UHGV virus genome: UHGV-0149611
Direction: 5' to 3' (one strand)
DNA: 14,327 nt
Source of the DNA: a virus
The number at the start of each line of letters is the position of its first letter. Within the stretch, counting starts at the first letter, position 1. This document shows positions 1,823 through 14,327 of this stretch, one piece after another. The notes below the pieces were generated by a model, which saw only the letters and a program-made list of their open reading frames with translations, was not told the DNA's origin and ran no database searches. The position numbers and the translations under genes are program-made.

Positions 1823-1876
1823 GGGGCTAAATAGCCCCAGATACCTCAACAGCCCCTATTTAAAGGGGCTTTTTTA
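1823..1876 (+). terminator. Rho-independent terminator: hairpin GGGGCT/AGCCCC (1823-1838), then AGCCCCT-ATTTAA-AGGGGCT (1851-1870) followed by TTTTTT (1871-1876)
   Basis: Perfect 7-bp GC-rich stem plus a 6-T tract immediately downstream of the last rightward small ORF. Confidence 0.8.
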
Positions 1877-3420
1877 CGTCTATTGAATCCTTATACAATC
1901 CCTTTCCAGAATCTTATCAGACCTTAAAAGCAATAACTCTATAGTCTACTCTATAACCTCTTATCAAATCAACTTAAATAAAAGCCAATAACCCCCAGAA
2001 AGGGGATGGCCCATTTAAACGCTCTATAAAGCTCTATAACAGCCTTATCAACCTAACTTAAGGGATTGCATTAACCAACCTTAAAAAGCTCTTTACAGGG
2101 CTTTATAGAGACTTAAAAGAATCTTATAAGGGTGTAAGCTTTATCATCTCGTTAGTATCTTGTGAATAACTAAAAAGGGCTATGAGATAGGAATCTATCG
2201 AATCCTATTGTTAGTGTCTTAAAAGTATGTTATAGGGGCTTAAAAGTTACTTCAAAGTTACGTAAAAGGGGTTATAAAGTTACGTAAATGCTAACCCCCT
2301 TAACATTATCTTAACAATCCCTACATAGTTATGCTTGTTAGAGACTTGTTAGCCACTTGTTAAATCTCTGTTAAGACCACGTAAAAGCCTTGTAAGAGTC
2401 TTTGACATAGCCTTAAAAGTTCCTGTAAAGCCCTATAAAGAGGTGTCTGTATAGTTGGGGTGTAACTACTAGGAAGAGACTTAAAAGGGGCTATACAGAG
2501 CTATAGAGAGCTTTTAAGAGGTATGTTTAAGGAATCACTAAGAAGGGAAAGGGAACGATAAGAAAGAGATAGTGACCATGTTAATAGCTTGTTAAAAAGA
2601 TTAAACACTTGTTAGAGACTTGTTAATTATCTTAACAAAATAACTCTTAAAAATTAACTTGTTAGCTCTTGTTAGTCATCTGTTAAGATTCTGTAAAGCC
2701 CATGTATCAACTGTTAAGAAACTGTTAAGCCCTTGTTAGTTCTGTTAAGAATCTGTTAAGACCTATGAAGAGTTGTTAAGAGCTTGAGAGAGTTGTTAAG
2801 AAATTGTTAAGGATATTTTAAAATTTTGCAAAGTACTTGTAAGGGAGTTGTTAAGGGCTACCAAGCAGATATACACCCTATTCAGATATTTTTGAGTTCC
2901 TTCAAAGACCCTAAAAAATGACTTGATAGTCCTATTTTATAAAAATTTTAAGATTCTGAATAATTACCTAGACAGTCTTTTAAAAATACAGGTAATAACA
3001 GGCTTATAAGATACCTTGTTAGTACCGTGTTAGACCTTGTGAGATAAGGTCTGTAAAGATATTCCTGTTAAGTTTGTTAAAACAGTCTATATAGAGGCTT
3101 AGTAATACCTAGTGAACACCTATAGAGAGTAACATAGCTGACATAGAGATTAAGAGGTGTATAGGAGCTTCTAAGAGGGTATAGAGAGATGGTTAAGGTG
3201 ATTGTATAGGTTGTTTAGAAGGCTTGTTAGAAGAGTGTTTAGAAGGGCTATTTAGAAGGGTTATACAGAGGGCTATTAAGACCACTAGATAGTTACTAAG
3301 ATACTATATAGTACTATATAACTATATAGAGAGTAAGATTAAGAAGGTTGTTAAGAAGGATAGATATTTTATTCACATATGATGGTGACCAAGAGGTTGG
3401 GACAACCGATAAAATTTTAT
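1877..3420. repeat. ~1.5-kb non-coding region of degenerate short words (CTTAAAAG, CTATAAAG, CTTGTTAG, CTGTTAAG, TTAGAAG, CTATATAG), partly phased at ~10-11 bp
   Basis: No ORF of 60 aa or more on either strand; stop-rich in all frames; YTGTTARG words starting at 2588, 2609, 2619, 2659, 2669, 2680, 2711, 2722, 2732, 2742, 2753, 2773, 2793, 2804. Confidence 0.8.
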
Positions 3421-3451
3421 AAAAATTAAAAAGCCCCCAATTAAGGAGGCT
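3421..3451 (-). terminator. Rho-independent terminator candidate at the end of the leftward gene block
   Basis: On the minus strand: AGCCTCC-TTAATT-GGGGGCT hairpin followed by TTTTTAATTTTT, just downstream of the stop at 3463. Confidence 0.6.
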
Positions 3452-3462
3452 CTTAAGATATT

Positions 3463-11092: not shown

Positions 11093-11464
11093 ATGAAAAA
11101 CAGAACAAACAAAGGCCAGTTTAAAAAAGGCCAGTCTGGAAACCCATCTGGAAGACCAAAAGGCTCTCGTAACAAAAGCTCACTTGTAAAAGCTCAACTG
11201 ACCATTGATAATTCTGCTGAGTTTGCTGCAAAGTTGTTTGAGGCGGTTGTTACAAGGGATGCTGCTAAGCTTGCAGAGTTCGGTTTGACGACTGACGATG
11301 TAAACCTGAAGTCGATGATGGAGGCTGGTAAAACCATCATGACTCACTCAGCAGGTGAGATGAAAGCGATTGCAGCAGACACTAAGAAGACCCCTGATAA
11401 TGGTGGTCAGTCTCAGACAGATAACAAACCAACGTTCTCTGCTGTAGCGACTCTCAAAAAATAA
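11093..11464 (+). CDS. hypothetical small basic protein (123 aa) with N-terminal GNPSGRPKGS (AT-hook-like) motif
   Basis: AAGAGG 7 nt upstream of ATG; GRP core flanked by basic residues; Ala-rich probably helical C-terminal part. Confidence 0.65.
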   Translation: MKNRTNKGQFKKGQSGNPSGRPKGSRNKSSLVKAQLTIDNSAEFAAKLFEAVVTRDAAKLAEFGLTTDDVNLKSMMEAGKTIMTHSAGEMKAIAADTKKTPDNGGQSQTDNKPTFSAVATLKK

Positions 11465-11545: not shown

Positions 11546-12961
11546 ATGAGCGAATTATTTAAACATGCGCACCTTCATGCAGGTCGAACTGAAAATGGTG
11601 CTGTAAACCATACTTCATCAATGTCTGCTCTTGTAGACTTTTACAAAGCTGCTGGTTCAAGCCGTAGCAACGTAGAAATCTTACCAGACCTGTTCTACAA
11701 AGCTTTGCGTGAGGATGTTGATGTTGCAGTTCGTATTTTGCTTCATATGCGAGATGTACGAGAAGGTATGGGTGAGCGTAAAGCCTTCAGAACTGTTTTA
11801 CTTCAAGCGATTGAAGACAAAGTTTTAGAGCCTACGCAGGTTCTTCGCATTATGGATAAGATTGCAGAACTTGGTCGTTTTGATGACTTCAAAATCTTCG
11901 TAGGTACTCGTTTCGAGACAGATGCCTTCAAACATCTAGAAGCAGCATTACTAGACCCTGCAACAGCAGGTTTGGCGGCTAAGTGGTTACCACGAGTCAA
12001 ACCACGTCATAAGCAGTTTGTAAAACGTTTCTGCAAGTTTGCCAACTTGAGTGAGAAAGAGTACCGCACACTGTTGTCTGCACTATCTGATACAGTTGAG
12101 CAAAAAATCTCTGCTAATGAGTTTGGTAAGATTGACTACAGTAAGATTCCTTCACTTGCTGCTGCACGTTACCAAAAACTGTTTAACCGCAAAGATGGAG
12201 AACGCTACAAAGCTTACATCGAGTCCTTATCAAAGGGTGAGACTAAGATTAATGCTGGTGCTGTTTACCCATACGATGTAATTAAATCTGTTAAGCATGG
12301 TAATGCAGATGTTGCTAATGAGCAGTGGAAAGCACTACCAAACTGGATGGCAGAGGGTGAAAACATCTTGTGTATGTCTGATGTTTCAAGCTCAATGTCT
12401 TGGGTGAATTTTGGTTCAATTACTGCTCTTGATATTGGTGTTTCACTTGCATTGTATGTAGCAGAACGTAATACAGGTTGCTTTAAGAATGAGTTGATGG
12501 TTTATTCAACAAACCCTCACTTCATCGAACTGAGTGGTGATTTACGAAACCGTCATCGTCAGGTGATGCGACACGTTGAATATGGCTCAACTAACTTACA
12601 AGCAGCTTTTGACCGTATTCTTGAAACAGGTAAAAGAAACAACTTGACTCAGAAAGATATGCCAAGTAAGCTTATCATCTTCTCCGATATGGAGTTCAAT
12701 CAGGTTGATGGAGCTAACGGTCGTACAAACTTTGAAGCAATTCGTAGTAAGTACAAAAAAGCTGGATACGAAATGCCTCAACTGGTATTCTGGTACTTAG
12801 CAAACCGTAATGGTACTTGCGAAGTGTCTGTTAAGGATAACGGTGTAGCAATGGTATCTGGTTTTTCTCCAGCTACTTTAAAAGCTCTGCTTGGTGGTGA
12901 GAAGTTTGACCCAATCAGCGTAATGCTCAAAGCAGTAATGATTGACCGTTATATCTGGTAA
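11546..12961 (+). CDS. von Willebrand factor A (vWA) domain protein with complete MIDAS motif (471 aa); possibly Ro60/TROVE-like
   Basis: C-terminal ~190 aa: ILCMSDVSSSM (DxSxS), GSTNL (Thr), LIIFSDME (Asp) in the expected order of a vWA fold; N-terminal ~270 aa appears helical; Ro60-like architecture is inferred only. Confidence 0.8.
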   Translation: MSELFKHAHLHAGRTENGAVNHTSSMSALVDFYKAAGSSRSNVEILPDLFYKALREDVDVAVRILLHMRDVREGMGERKAFRTVLLQAIEDKVLEPTQVLRIMDKIAELGRFDDFKIFVGTRFETDAFKHLEAALLDPATAGLAAKWLPRVKPRHKQFVKRFCKFANLSEKEYRTLLSALSDTVEQKISANEFGKIDYSKIPSLAAARYQKLFNRKDGERYKAYIESLSKGETKINAGAVYPYDVIKSVKHGNADVANEQWKALPNWMAEGENILCMSDVSSSMSWVNFGSITALDIGVSLALYVAERNTGCFKNELMVYSTNPHFIELSGDLRNRHRQVMRHVEYGSTNLQAAFDRILETGKRNNLTQKDMPSKLIIFSDMEFNQVDGANGRTNFEAIRSKYKKAGYEMPQLVFWYLANRNGTCEVSVKDNGVAMVSGFSPATLKALLGGEKFDPISVMLKAVMIDRYIW

Positions 12962-13070: not shown

Positions 13071-13100
13071 TTGACAACCACTAAAAAATAATGTTAAAGT
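13071..13100 (+). promoter_or_regulatory. sigma70-like promoter candidate: TTGACA (13071-13076), 18-bp spacer, TAAAGT (13095-13100)
   Basis: Same architecture as 11477-11506; 27 nt upstream of tRNA-Pro. Confidence 0.45.
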
Positions 13101-13126: not shown

Positions 13127-13203
13127 CTCTGTTTAGCTCAGCTTGGTAGAGCGTTCCGTTTGGGGCGGTAAGGCCGGAGGTTCAAGTCCTCCAACAGAGA
13201 CCA
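13127..13203 (+). tRNA. tRNA-Pro (anticodon UGG), CCA encoded
   Basis: Acceptor CTCTGTT/AACAGAG, D-loop AGCTTGGTA, anticodon loop TTTGGGG, T-arm GGAGG-TTCAAGT-CCTCC, discriminator A, CCA; C1:G72 as is typical for tRNA-Pro. Confidence 0.85.
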
Positions 13204-13288: not shown

Positions 13289-13295
13289 GTTTTGA

Positions 13296-13367
13296 CAGAA
13301 GACCAATTACAGCAAACTTAATCTACTCATCTGACACGAAATCGGACAAAGAAGATATTTGGTCTGG
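13296..13367 (+). ncRNA. Stem-bounded element a: CAGAAGACCAA ... TTGGTCTGG
   Basis: 7-bp arms AGACCAA/TTGGTCT enclosing 52 nt; conserved flanks CAGAAGACC and GGTCTGG shared with elements b-d. Confidence 0.4.
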
Positions 13368-13378
13368 TCATTGAGAAT

Positions 13379-13455
13379 TGCGGGTATAGAGAAAGGGCGT
13401 CTCACATGTCTCATTAGCATGGTATCGGCAGGTTCGACTCCTGCACCCGCCTCCA
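13379..13455 (+). tRNA. tRNA with anticodon CAU (Met or Ile2); atypical features
   Basis: T-arm GCAGG-TTCGACT-CCTGC, acceptor 3' ACCCGCC plus U plus CCA, D-arm GAGA/TCTC, anticodon arm CATGT-CTCATTA-GCATG; register of the 5' acceptor strand ambiguous by 1 nt; position 37 is U. Confidence 0.55.
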
Positions 13456-13461
13456 ATTTTG

Positions 13462-13521
13462 CAGAAGACCGTATTCAGCAACAAAATACTTTTTGCGGAT
13501 AAAAGAAAAAACACGGTCTGG
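13462..13521 (+). ncRNA. Stem-bounded element b: CAGAAGACCGT ... ACGGTCTGG
   Basis: 7-bp arms AGACCGT/ACGGTCT enclosing 40 nt; arm sequence co-varies relative to elements a and c. Confidence 0.4.
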
Positions 13522-13532
13522 CAATGTATTAA

Positions 13533-13609
13533 GGTTAGGAAGCACATAAGGTATGTGCGGTCGCCTGTTAAGCGAATGGCACAGGGTTCGAATCCCTGAC
13601 TAACCGCCA
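13533..13609 (+). tRNA. tRNA-Asn (anticodon GUU), CCA encoded
   Basis: D-arm GCAC/GTGC, anticodon loop CTGTTAA, T-arm CAGGG-TTCGAAT-CCCTG, acceptor 3' ACTAACC, discriminator G, CCA. Confidence 0.8.
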
Positions 13610-13711: not shown

Positions 13712-13789
13712 GGTTATGTAGTTTAATTTGGTTAAAATACTACCCTGTCACGGGAGATGATGAGGGTTCAAATCCCTTCGTAACCGCCA
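13712..13789 (+). tRNA. tRNA-Asp (anticodon GUC), CCA encoded
   Basis: Acceptor GGTTATG/CGTAACC (one G-U), anticodon loop CTGTCAC, T-arm GAGGG-TTCAAAT-CCCTT, discriminator G, CCA. Confidence 0.8.
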
Positions 13790-13814
13790 ATTTTGAGAGG
13801 GCTATTTAGCCCCT

Positions 13815-13848
13815 CCCTTAAAGAGTTCTTACGAGTATTCTTTAAGGG
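13815..13848 (+). other. Perfect 10-bp hairpin CCCTTAAAGA / TCTTTAAGGG with 14-nt loop; a smaller GGGCT/AGCCC hairpin sits at 13799-13812
   Basis: Exact reverse-complementary arms; no U-tract follows, so not a classic intrinsic terminator. Confidence 0.5.
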
Positions 13849-13850
13849 AG

Positions 13851-13924
13851 CAGAAGACCAAATACAGCAAGAATGTATGAAATTTCAAGCCAATTTAATT
13901 TTGAAAATTTAAAACTTGGTCTGG
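13851..13924 (+). ncRNA. Stem-bounded element c: CAGAAGACCAA ... TTGGTCTGG
   Basis: 7-bp arms AGACCAA/TTGGTCT enclosing 54 nt of AT-rich sequence. Confidence 0.4.
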
Positions 13925-13937
13925 CTCAACAAATTTA

Positions 13938-14070
13938 CAGAAGACCGTTTACAGCAAAACTTAAACAATCTATTTCTCCGGTAAAGAAAAGGCGAAGGTT
14001 CGATTCCTTCACTCGGCAGATGTCGAGTTGGTGTAATGGTAGCACTTAAGATGATAAACAACGGTCTGGT
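13938..14070 (+). ncRNA. Stem-bounded element d enclosing a circularly permuted tRNA-like domain; candidate Y-RNA-like tRNA mimic
   Basis: 8-bp arms AGACCGTT (13942-13949) / AACGGTCT (14060-14067); inside, in order: hairpin TTTCT-CCGGTAA-AGAAA (13973-13989), T-arm GAAGG-TTCGATT-CCTTC (13994-14010), acceptor 3' ACTCGGC (14011-14017), 4-nt link AGAT (14018-14021), acceptor 5' GTCGAGT (14022-14028, pairs 7/7 with one G-U), then U8 and D-arm GTGT-AATGGTA-GCAC (14031-14045). Confidence 0.45.
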
Positions 14071-14212
14071 AATTATCTTTGTAGATAAGTTATTAAGCTT
14101 ACCTGTGAGTATGCGACCACAAAGGGTGAAAGGGTAAATTCTAGATTTAAACCCAAAAAGGCACATCGCTACAGACCTTAAGCAAGTCTGGGTAGCTTAT
14201 CTACAAAGATAA
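14071..14212 (+). repeat. 19-bp perfect inverted repeat AATTATCTTTGTAGATAAG (14071-14089) / CTTATCTACAAAGATAATT (14194-14212) enclosing ~104 nt
   Basis: Exact reverse complementarity; the enclosed segment contains a compact CAGACC-TTAAGCAA-GTCTGG version of the element motif (14171-14190). Confidence 0.7.
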
Positions 14213-14218
14213 TTTAAT

Positions 14219-14278
14219 GGAAGTGTAGCAGAATGGTGATGCGGCAGACTTTTAATCTGACAGGCGATGGGTTCGAAT
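14219..14278 (+). tRNA. tRNA-Lys (anticodon UUU), 3' end truncated by the end of the real insert
   Basis: Acceptor 5' GGAAGTG, D-arm GCA/TGC, anticodon arm GCAGA-CTTTTAA-TCTGA, T-stem 5' ATGGG plus T-loop TTCGAAT, then adapter begins. Confidence 0.55.
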
Positions 14279-14327
14279 CTGTCTCTTATACACATCTCCG
14301 AGCCCACGAGACACTCGCTAATCTCGT
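14279..14327. other. Illumina Nextera adapter read-through (not biological sequence)
   Basis: CTGTCTCTTATACACATCT + CCGAGCCCACGAGAC + 8-nt index ACTCGCTA + ATCTCGT, the transposase mosaic end followed by the i7/P7 adapter layout. Confidence 0.95.

What the first reader, a model, noticed from the sequence alone, without database searches (positions are those of the whole stretch)
14071..14212. Perfect 19-bp inverted repeat enclosing ~104 nt next to the tRNAs: candidate processed small RNA
AATTATCTTTGTAGATAAG at 14071-14089 is the exact reverse complement of 14194-14212. A 19-bp perfect duplex in a transcript is long enough to be an RNase III substrate. Each arm is also nearly self-complementary (TTATCT-TTGT-AGATAA), so alternative local hairpins are possible. 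The enclosed segment contains a compact CAGACC...GTCTGG motif. It may be a stable small RNA of the kind known from the T4 tRNA region, or a DNA-level recombination or protein-binding site.
Basis: seen in the sequence. Interest (0 to 1): 0.5.

Follow-up and report, generated by a model that had tools for sequence, protein, structure and literature searches.

The report
Pseudoknotted small RNA beside phage tRNAs
The inverted repeat is the 24-bp closing stem of a conserved, doubly pseudoknotted small RNA of about 144 nt, not in Rfam, that Felix O1-like phages encode among their tRNAs just downstream of a Ro60-like gene and several Y-RNA-like genes.

Summary
The repeat is real and far beyond chance, but its 3' arm lies at 14196-14214, not 14194-14212. 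With three G·U pairs it extends to a 24-bp helix (14071-14094 / 14191-14214).

The window is 100% identical here to Salmonella phage Felix O1. I found 17 homologues from about 12 lineages. All lie on the tRNA strand; wherever I checked, the gap to tRNA-Lys(UUU) is only a few nt. They share one architecture:
- a long closing stem P1, stacked directly on a terminal hairpin P4;
- pseudoknot PK1, between the 9-nt P4 loop and the strand just after P1;
- a second 4-5-bp long-range helix, PK2.

All four helices covary. P1 holds 45 G·U pairs against 2 A·C mismatches, so the + strand RNA is what folds. No Rfam family matches, and no ORF is conserved.

The upstream ORF (DUF2828+DUF7788) folds like Ro60. 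Four Y-RNA-like elements lie between the tRNAs, and the last one, which has a YrlA-type tRNA-like domain, abuts P1.

Most likely this is a stable RNA cut out of the tRNA precursor and working with the phage Ro60/Y-RNA system. That role, and RNase III cleavage, are inferred, not shown.

The parts
14071..14094 (+). P1, 5' strand of the closing helix (AAUUAUCUUUGUAGAUAAGUUAUU).
   Evidence: 24 bp (21 Watson-Crick + 3 G·U). In alignment A5, 8 of 23 pairs change on both sides. P1 is long in all 17 homologues although its sequence is unrelated between lineages.
14191..14214 (+). P1, 3' strand (GGUAGCUUAUCUACAAAGAUAAUU). The perfect 19-nt arm is 14196-14214.
   Evidence: It starts with no spacer after P4 in all 17 homologues.
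14097..14101 (+). PK1, 5' strand (GCUUA), in the junction right after P1.
   Evidence: It pairs with UAAGC at 14179-14183. Covariation: HK3-type GCUAA/UUAGC, L218 UUGUUCA/UGAACAA, L090 UUACUA/UAGUAA. Swap test: own partners score 82 against 63.7±3.7 for permuted partners, 0 of 20000 permutations as high.
14104..14121 (+). Hairpin Pa (UGUG 14104-14107 / CACA 14118-14121). Its loop carries the PK2 5' strand.
   Evidence: RNAalifold and the counts on A5: UGUG/CACA changes to GGGG/CCCC in L006/L088.
14113..14116 (+). PK2 (P2), 5' strand (GCGA).
   Evidence: It pairs with UCGC at 14166-14169. L006 has GCGG/CCGC; other lineages have GAGU/ACUC, CAGU/ACUG or GGGU/ACCC at the same place. The four core columns are canonical in 56 of 56 cells. 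Helix 4 of A5 is 100% paired.
14132..14154 (+). P3 hairpin (GGGU...ACCC), with the apical sequence AUUCUAGAUU shared by the Felix O1-type and HK3-type alleles.
   Evidence: It is the most variable helix (79% of cells paired).
14166..14169 (+). PK2 (P2), 3' strand (UCGC). It is followed by the spacer UA (14170-14171), whose A is kept in all homologues.
14172..14190 (+). P4 hairpin: CAGAC / loop CUUAAGCAA (14177-14185) / GUCUG. Loop bases 14179-14183 form PK1.
   Evidence: The stem covaries: CAGUC/GACUG, CAAACC/GGUUUG, CUGUUC/GAACGG, CAACC/GGUUG, AGAGAC/GUCUCU. Pairs: 95 Watson-Crick + 2 G·U.
14215..14218 (+). Spacer UAAU of 4 nt between P1 and tRNA-Lys. It would be the 3' tail of the RNA after RNase P cuts at the tRNA 5' end (inferred).
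   Evidence: Sequence; tRNA start. In relatives the spacer read off the printed gap sequences is about 3-12 nt; this was read by eye, not tabulated.
14219..14281 (+). tRNA-Lys(UUU), cut short at 14281 by sequencing adapter. It is the conserved downstream neighbour.
   Evidence: Rfam tRNA 31.2 bits. A full gene is annotated in relatives.
13936..14071 (+). Y-RNA-like element 4, of YrlA architecture. Closing stem UAC/GUA, bulge AGA opposite G, stem AGACCG/CGGUCU, motif UACAGCAA. Then V arm 13973-13989, T arm 13994-14010, closed acceptor-like stem 14011-14028 and D arm 14031-14045. It shares A14071 with P1.
   Evidence: (partial tRNA match at 13961-14011). The order V-T-AS-D is the one described for YrlA (PMC4201824). 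The acceptor-like stem covaries: ACUCGGC/GUCGAGU, ACACG/CGUGU, ACCCUUC/GAAGGGU.
13294..13369 (+). Y-RNA-like element 1 (context).
   Evidence: Descriptor scan.
13460..13523 (+). Y-RNA-like element 2 (context).
13849..13926 (+). Y-RNA-like element 3 (context).
11546..12961 (+). Ro60-like protein gene (DUF2828 + DUF7788, 471 aa), the homologue of Bas63 gp130 (context).
   Evidence: Pfam. AlphaFold2 model with pLDDT 86.8. Foldseek top hits are all full-length Ro60/TROVE structures: 2i91, 1yvp, 9nfa, 2nvo and Thermus phage phiLo 9l5y/9kop, TM 0.5-0.66, E about 1e-7 to 1e-8. Homologues of 33% identity are annotated 'Ro-like RNA binding protein' in mycobacteriophages.
13071..13100 (+). Sigma-70-like promoter (TTGACA-18-TAAAGT, with TG) upstream of tRNA-Pro; candidate start of the array transcript.
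   Evidence: It is a consensus match only, and the region has no more such matches than its shuffles.

Best explanation
Shown: the inverted repeat is helix P1 of a discrete folded non-coding RNA of about 144 nt (14071-14214) on the + strand. The RNA has four further elements. P4 (14172-14190) is a terminal hairpin that starts where P1 ends, so the two can stack. PK1 joins the P4 loop (14179-14183) to the strand just after P1 (14097-14101). PK2 is a second long-range helix (14113-14116 with 14166-14169), whose 5' strand sits in the loop of hairpin Pa. P3 is a variable apical hairpin. The RNA lies inside the tRNA / Y-RNA-like array downstream of a Ro60-like gene.

Inferred: the array is transcribed as one precursor. 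RNase P cutting at the tRNA-Lys 5' end would leave the RNA with a 4-nt 3' tail. The 5' side either stays joined to the abutting YrlA-like RNA or is released by cleavage in or near the long helix; RNase III is possible. The mature RNA would work as a partner of the phage Ro60/Y-RNA system. In that model a long helix plus a short 3' tail docks on, or is tethered next to, the Ro60-like ring, and the pseudoknotted head engages a host factor such as a ribonuclease or a defence protein.

Confidence by step: a functional structured + strand RNA, about 0.9; excised as a stable small RNA, about 0.6; working with the Ro60-like protein, about 0.4.
For: Structure:
- The repeat is far beyond chance and the fold has z = -5.2.
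- 17 homologues from about 12 sequence lineages keep P1, P4, PK1 and PK2 although their sequences are unrelated.
- P1 has 286 Watson-Crick and 45 G·U pairs against only 2 A·C mismatches, and every P1 and P4 column has 2-5 pair types.
- PK1 swap test: 82 against 63.7±3.7, 0 of 20000 permutations as high.
- In my manual register, the PK1 core is canonical in 51 of 55 cells and the PK2 core in 56 of 56, both with changes on both sides.
- On the model-based alignment A5, 95% of cells pair, against 83% when shuffled and 34-40% when slid; 20 pairs change on both sides.
- Model R1 scores 179 bits on the + strand and 39 on the - strand. It also finds the HK3-type (E about 1e-13), L217 (9e-6), and L007, L216 and L215 (0.01-0.03) at the syntenic place.
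- No ORF is conserved.

Context:
- The Ro60 fold of the upstream ORF.
- 166 Y-like descriptor hits against 5 in shuffles, all on the Ro strand in the loci that were oriented by the Ro gene.
- Y-like element 4 has the YrlA order of arms and abuts P1.
- In L007 the same pseudoknot module is closed by a Y-type stem, UUUGC-AAA-GAAUCU-UUCAGCA ... AGAUUC-CCU-GCAAG.
- A Y-like or ANA-G motif also sits at the base of P1 in L089, L215 and L216.
- tRNA-Lys always follows.
- Within the phage collection, records holding the element (271) and records holding a close Ro-like gene of at least 80% identity (251) are similar in number and cover the same host genera.
Against: - There are no expression or end-mapping data; I found no RNA-seq for Felix O1-like phages.
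- In the window itself P1 is a perfect helix. It lacks the bulge and the CAGCAA-type motif of the neighbouring Y-like stems, so there is no recognisable Ro-binding site in this RNA.
- Bas63 gp130 alone, from a plasmid or inserted in T7, counters the ppl defence. The Ro-like protein therefore does not need this RNA for that phenotype (PMC11482910).
- Linkage to the Ro-like gene may only reflect shared ancestry within one phage clade. Model R1 found nothing in 100 more distant Ro-like loci.
- PK2 is only weakly supported by the alignment-free swap test (4.3%).
- The PK1 and PK2 registers were set by hand, which favours pairing.
Confidence: 0.5

Rival explanations
1. It is a structured RNA that acts independently of Ro60. 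It could be a decoy or inhibitor of a host defence or RNA-processing enzyme, or a structured 5' leader that controls maturation or stability of the tRNA-Lys(UUU) that always follows it.
For: tRNA-Lys follows in every lineage. The interior of the RNA is swapped between phages whose flanks are at least 97% identical and whose Ro-like protein is identical (45-77% identity inside), as expected for a part under arms-race selection. P1 in the window has no Ro-binding-type motif. gp130 works without phage RNAs against ppl.
Against: It is physically joined to, or enclosed by, Y-type stems in several lineages. Nothing identifies a target. A plain tRNA leader would not need two pseudoknots and a 24-bp stem.
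Confidence: 0.25
2. It is only an RNase III processing signal. In this reading the long duplex exists to be cut, separating the upstream Y-like RNA from tRNA-Lys, and the interior has no function of its own.
For: There are 24 uninterrupted base pairs in the window and 22-25 in most relatives, more than is needed just to close a domain. From my own knowledge, E. coli RNase III needs about two helical turns.
Against: The interior is more constrained than a spacer would be: PK1, PK2, P4 and its loop sequence are conserved and covary. In L215, L216, L218, L219 and L007 the stem is broken by internal loops. Cleavage was not tested.
Confidence: 0.12
3. It is a catalytic or ligand-binding RNA: a new self-cleaving ribozyme that processes the array, or a riboswitch-like sensor.
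For: It has a compact double-pseudoknot fold with invariant unpaired bases (the A before P4, and the loop's 5' C and 3' AA). From my own knowledge, small ribozymes are known next to phage tRNAs.
Against: Nothing in Rfam 15 matched at the element at E up to 10 in the window or up to 1 in six relatives; from my own knowledge Rfam holds the known small self-cleaving ribozyme and riboswitch classes. The topology differs from HDV-like, twister and pistol folds (my reading). No downstream gene is placed so as to be regulated.
Confidence: 0.08
4. It is a DNA-level element (cruciform, recombination or protein-binding site, or origin), or a protein-coding gene (the 85-aa ORF at 13909-14166 on the - strand).
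For: It is a perfect palindrome-like repeat, and some GenBank records annotate 'hypothetical protein' over it.
Against: G·U pairs outnumber A·C mismatches 45 to 2, so only the + strand transcript can form the helix in relatives. The pseudoknots make no sense for DNA. The ORF is absent from nearly all relatives, and no ORF is shared.
Confidence: 0.04

Closest known systems
Bacterial and phage Y RNAs (YrlA/YrlB of Salmonella, mycobacteriophage YrlA, Yrl1/Yrl2 of Thermus phage phiLo; PMC4201824, PMC12135203)
   Same: It is encoded on the same strand within about 1.1 kb of a Ro60-type gene. It is about 100-150 nt. Its 5' and 3' ends form a long stem that encloses a structured module. It sits in tandem with other Y-like RNAs. 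In one relative (L007) the same module is closed by a Y-type bulged stem.
   Different: The module is a double pseudoknot rather than a tRNA-like domain or a simple internal loop. In the window the closing stem is a perfect 24-bp helix with no bulge and no GNCGAA/CGAA-type or CAGCAA motif. Binding to Ro60 is untested.
T4 stable RNAs species 1 and 2 (rnaC, rnaD) in the T4 tRNA cluster
   Same: They are small RNAs of unknown function encoded among phage tRNA genes and, from my own knowledge, released from the tRNA precursor.
   Different: They share no sequence or structure with this RNA. rnaC is tRNA-like, with a T arm, and model R1 does not match the T4 region. T4 has no Ro60-like gene next to them.
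RNase III processing stems (T7 early-region sites, rRNA precursor stems; own knowledge)
   Same: An uninterrupted duplex of at least 20 bp formed by sequences flanking a functional RNA in a polycistronic precursor.
   Different: Here the enclosed RNA has its own conserved tertiary fold stacked on the stem. Cleavage is not shown, and several relatives interrupt the stem.
Large structured phage-associated RNAs found near tRNA genes (ROOL, GOLLD; own knowledge)
   Same: Phage-encoded, next to tRNAs, elaborately folded, function unknown.
   Different: Those are 500-800 nt and have Rfam models. No Rfam family other than tRNA reached its gathering score anywhere in the window. This RNA is about 144 nt and was seen only in Felix O1-like phages and their relatives.

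Membership tests
Y RNA (Ro60-associated ncRNA) | Encoded close to, and on the same strand as, a Ro60 orthologue | tested here: met
   The element starts 1110 nt downstream of ORF 11546-12961 on the same strand. The ORF has the Ro60 fold.
Y RNA (Ro60-associated ncRNA) | A terminal stem formed by the 5' and 3' ends that carries the Ro-binding site (a bulged helix or a conserved GNCGAA/CGAA-like motif) | tested here: not met
   P1 of the window RNA is a perfect 24-bp helix without a bulge or motif. The four neighbouring elements do have a conserved bulged stem, NNN-AGA-AGACC...GGUCU-G-NNN, plus CAGCAA. The L007 homologue has a Y-type stem.
Y RNA (Ro60-associated ncRNA) | Physical binding to Ro60 | not testable with these tools
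   This needs a pull-down or gel shift with the 471-aa protein.
YrlA subclass of Y RNAs | A tRNA-like domain (V, T, closed acceptor-like stem and D arms) | tested here: not met
   There is no tRNA-model match inside 14071-14214. The neighbouring element 13936-14071 does have the domain.
RNase III substrate | A regular duplex of about two helical turns | tested here: met
   24 bp in the window; 22-25 bp with at most one defect in 11 of 17 homologues.
RNase III substrate | Cleavage by RNase III in vivo or in vitro | not testable with these tools
   No data found.
T4-type stable RNAs (rnaC/rnaD) | Sequence or structure homology to rnaC or rnaD | tested here: not met
   The folds differ, and R1 has no match in L220.
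Any curated RNA family (Rfam 15, which from my own knowledge includes the known small ribozymes and riboswitches) | A match to a covariance model | tested here: not met
   No match at the element at E up to 10 in the window or up to 1 in six relatives.
Protein-coding gene | An ORF conserved among relatives | tested here: not met
   The 85-aa ORF on the - strand occurs only in the window type, and no ORF is shared across lineages.

The most novel reading that the evidence does not exclude
The RNA is a previously unrecognised class of Ro60-system RNA: a double-pseudoknot effector module that phage Ro60 orthologues use alongside YrlA-type tRNA mimics to capture or block a host ribonuclease or defence factor. 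Its swappable interior (Felix O1-type versus HK3-type alleles) would then reflect an arms race. Alternatively, it is a new catalytic or ligand-binding fold.
Probability: 0.3. Interest if true: 0.8.

Novelty: new variant of a known kind. Interest (0 to 1): 0.62.

Why it matters
Felix O1 is a classic Salmonella typing and biocontrol phage, and its relative Bas63 is a current model for phage counter-defence. The Bas63 Ro60-like protein gp130 was recently shown to counter the ppl defence system. Its RNA partners were only guessed at ('some tRNA genes are possibly Y RNAs', PMC11482910).

This analysis gives exact coordinates for four Y-RNA-like genes, one of them a YrlA-type tRNA mimic. It also defines an additional, well-supported RNA fold that is absent from Rfam. 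That makes three questions directly testable:
- what phage Ro60 proteins bind;
- how the tRNA/ncRNA precursor is processed;
- whether these RNAs contribute to defence evasion.

It also corrects annotation. The region is labelled 'hypothetical protein' or left blank in hundreds of GenBank records, and the YrlA-like element is sometimes called a 131-nt tRNA-Thr.

Tried and rejected
- P4 as a miniature copy of the Y-like stem. In the window P4 (CAGAC...GUCUG) resembles the neighbouring AGACC...GGUCU stems. I rejected the idea because in other lineages the P4 and Y-like stems differ and do not change together.
- A MAFFT alignment of all 17 cores (A2) misaligned the 5' half and could not be used for pair counts. 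I used alignment-free swap tests, a manual register and a model-based alignment instead.
- PDB sequence search and NCBIfam gave nothing for the upstream ORF. Only fold comparison showed Ro60.
- An IMG/VR pattern scan for the P4 loop returned only close Felix O1-like variants plus chance hits in coding sequence.
- Protein-guided scans of IMG/VR and of metagenomes returned few or no relatives of intermediate distance. The informative ones came from Logan assemblies.
- A hand-written structure descriptor run over 220 loci recovered the known members with a long uninterrupted P1, plus AU-rich noise.
- T4 rnaC and rnaD were compared and are unrelated.
- The local hairpins within each arm are not conserved.
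- R1 gave a weak hit at window 2402-2528 (18.6 bits). I treated it as noise from an AU-rich repeat region.
- Not done: a covariance model built from all lineages, and a search of a whole public collection with such a model.

Full report
**1. Observation**

The 5' arm AATTATCTTTGTAGATAAG lies at 14071-14089. The repeat finder reports 22-nt arms at 95% complementarity. With G·U pairs allowed, the RNA helix is 24 bp without a break, 14071-14094 / 14191-14214.

The longest perfect inverted repeat in 100 dinucleotide shuffles of the window is 10-14 nt, against 19 nt observed. The MFE fold of 14060-14222 is -50.2 kcal/mol, z = -5.2.

**2. Where the window comes from**

The window is a Felix O1-like phage (Ounavirinae). 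Positions 14040-14240 are 100% identical to Salmonella phage Felix O1 AF320576.1, and 271 phage records hold a match.

The last 46 nt (14282-14327) are Nextera adapter, which cuts short a tRNA-Lys(UUU) that starts at 14219. ARAGORN and Rfam find seven tRNA genes on the + strand from 13127 onward. A sigma-70-like promoter match sits at 13071-13100 and no terminator-like site follows it on that strand.

**3. Homologues and architecture**

Divergent copies came from three sources:
- other Ounavirinae: HK3-type Felixounavirus, Mooglevirus and Suspvirus;
- Yersinia phage P778;
- eleven metagenomic contigs, reached through the neighbouring protein.

Seventeen copies from about 12 sequence lineages were compared. 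All lie on the tRNA strand and tRNA-Lys follows. All share these features:
- P1, a long closing helix of 13-25 contiguous pairs (6-10 where an internal loop splits it), whose sequence is unrelated between lineages.
- P4, a 5-6-bp hairpin with a 9-nt loop (consensus CUUWAGCAA). Its 3' strand is followed with no spacer by the P1 3' strand.
- PK1, pairing of 4-7 loop bases with the strand immediately after the P1 5' strand.
- PK2, a 4-5-bp helix between a segment 1-3 nt upstream of P4 and a segment that sits in the loop of an upstream hairpin (Pa).

**4. Evidence that the fold is selected**

- *P1 composition.* P1 has 286 Watson-Crick and 45 G·U pairs but only 2 A·C mismatches. Every one of the first ten P1 columns and every P4 column shows 2-5 different pair types. 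G·U becomes C·A on the other strand, so the + strand transcript is the folding molecule.
- *PK1, alignment-free.* Each junction matches its own loop better than the loops of other lineages: the summed score is 82 against 63.7±3.7, with 0 of 20000 permutations as high. Striking double changes include UUGUUCA/UGAACAA in L218, UUACUA/UAGUAA in L090, and GCUAA/UUAGC against GCUUA/UAAGC. L216 and L217 fit less well than the rest.
- *PK1 and PK2, manual register.* The four core PK1 columns are canonical in 51 of 55 cells and the four core PK2 columns in 56 of 56, with changes on both sides. Sliding the partner drops pairing to 16-50%. The register was set by hand, so these numbers favour the structure. 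The alignment-free test for PK2 is only marginal (4.3%).
- *Model-based alignment.* On alignment A5 (13 sequences, four lineages), 95% of cells pair, against 83% in shuffles and 34-40% when slid. Twenty pairs change on both sides.
- *Covariance model.* A model built only from Felix O1-type and L006-type sequences scores 179 bits on the + strand and 39 bits on the - strand of the window. It finds HK3-type copies (E about 1e-13), L217 (9e-6), and L007, L216 and L215 (0.01-0.03) at the syntenic position.

**5. What it is not**

- No Rfam 15 family matches the element in the window (E up to 10) or in six relatives (E up to 1).
- The 85-aa ORF on the - strand is confined to the window type, and no ORF is shared.
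- The T4 stable RNAs rnaC and rnaD are unrelated.
- The self-complementarity within each arm is lost in relatives.

**6. Surroundings**

*The upstream ORF.* ORF 11546-12961 (DUF2828 + DUF7788) gave a confident AlphaFold2 model (pLDDT 86.8). Its best PDB matches are all full-length Ro60/TROVE proteins, including Xenopus Ro60, Deinococcus Rsr and the Ro60 of Thermus phage phiLo. Homologues of 33% identity in mycobacteriophages are annotated as Ro-like. The Bas63 orthologue gp130 has been noted as Ro60-like and shown to counter the ppl defence. The authors only speculated that some 'tRNA genes' are Y RNAs (PMC11482910).

*The Y-like elements.* Between the tRNAs I found four copies of one element: NNN-AGA-AGACCRN-N3-CAGCAA ... 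NYGGUCU-G-NNN. They lie at 13294-13369, 13460-13523, 13849-13926 and 13936-14071, and both their stems covary. A descriptor for this element hits 166 times in the fetched loci against 5 in shuffles. In every locus that was oriented by the Ro gene, all hits are on the Ro strand.

*The fourth copy.* It contains, in the order V arm - T arm - closed acceptor-like stem - D arm, the permuted tRNA-like domain that defines YrlA-type Y RNAs (PMC4201824). It ends at A14071, which is also the first base of P1.

*Y-type motifs on the pseudoknot RNA in relatives.* In L007 the pseudoknot module itself is closed by a Y-type stem with the CAGCA motif. In L089, L215 and L216 a C-ANA-G motif sits at the base of P1.

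**7. Distribution and variation**

- The RNA was found only in Ounavirinae and in relatives whose Ro-like protein is at least about 52% identical. Model R1 found nothing in 100 more distant Ro-like loci, and a cruder descriptor found only noise there. R1 was built from one lineage, so distant copies could be missed.
- Two interior alleles, Felix O1-type and HK3-type, occur in phages whose Ro-like proteins are 100% identical. Identity is 45-77% inside the element and at least 97% in most of the flanks. This is a mosaic pattern, which other ncRNA segments of the array also show.

**8. Interpretation**

Shown: this is a conserved, doubly pseudoknotted RNA on the + strand within the tRNA / Y-like array.

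Inferred:
- release from a polycistronic precursor, with RNase P defining a 3' tail of 4 nt;
- the long helix as an RNase III site, or as a docking or spacer arm;
- a function together with the Ro60-like protein.

Three points count against the Ro60 link. The window's P1 has no recognisable Ro-binding motif. gp130 alone suffices against ppl. The genomic linkage could simply be inherited within one clade. For these reasons the Ro60 link carries only about 0.4 confidence. The main rival is an independent decoy or tRNA-Lys-leader role.

**9. Novelty**

The Ro60-like nature of the gene is published. As far as the searched literature and Rfam show, the Y-like elements and this pseudoknot RNA are not described. 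I file it as a new variant of a known kind: a modular ncRNA of a phage Ro60 / tRNA cluster. Membership in the Y RNA family is not established, because the stem-motif criterion was tested and not met in the window.

Noticed in passing
window 14282-14327: The last 46 nt are Illumina Nextera adapter (CTGTCTCTTATACACATCT CCGAGCCCACGAGAC...). The contig end is therefore an assembly artefact, and tRNA-Lys(UUU), which starts at 14219, is cut short.
   Followed up: partly
window 13294-13369, 13460-13523, 13849-13926, 13936-14071: Four Y-RNA-like elements with a conserved bulged stem and a CAGCAA motif lie between the tRNAs, with both stems covarying. The fourth has a YrlA-type permuted tRNA-like domain. 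They seem not to be annotated anywhere.
   Followed up: partly
L001 1591-1721 (Escherichia phage REP5, OQ174504.1): The GenBank record annotates a 131-nt 'tRNA-Thr GGT' over the region that holds the YrlA-like element. This is probably a mis-annotation caused by its T arm.
   Followed up: partly
window 1850-3460: A 1.6-kb stretch has no ORF of at least 40 aa on either strand. It is packed with short repeats (TGTTAAGA, TTGTTAG, CTTAAAAG, CTATAAAG, CTATAGAGAG) and matches no Rfam family. It may be an iteron, origin or packaging-type region.
   Followed up: no
window 14042-14221 versus L135 (OIXH01002422.1) and phage bumzen: Phages with 100% identical Ro-like proteins carry different interior alleles of the pseudoknot RNA (Felix O1-type or HK3-type). 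Other ncRNA segments of the array (about 13142-13201, 13442-13561 and 13742-13801) are also local hot spots of divergence.
   Followed up: partly
window 13797-13850: Two adjacent GC-rich hairpins (AGAGGGCUAUUUAGCCCCUCC and CUCCCUUAAAGAGUUCU...AGUAUUCUUUAAGGGAG) lie between tRNA-Asp and Y-like element 3. They are conserved in relatives, have no U-tract, and their function is unknown.
   Followed up: no
L214 1656-1796 (Yersinia phage vB_YenM_P778, PP693300.1): A tRNA-like gene carries an insertion of about 65 nt. Its acceptor and T arm are intact, and it gives a weak tmRNA-model match.
   Followed up: no
window 14136-14148; L006 and HK3-type equivalents: The apical part of P3 keeps a self-complementary hexamer: UCUAGA in the Felix O1 and HK3 types, and ACUAGU in L006, where both ends changed together. 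This could extend the hairpin or allow loop-loop dimerisation.
   Followed up: no
window 11093-11464: A DUF5681 gene sits directly upstream of the Ro60-like gene in every relative whose upstream genes were listed. It may be part of the same module.
   Followed up: no
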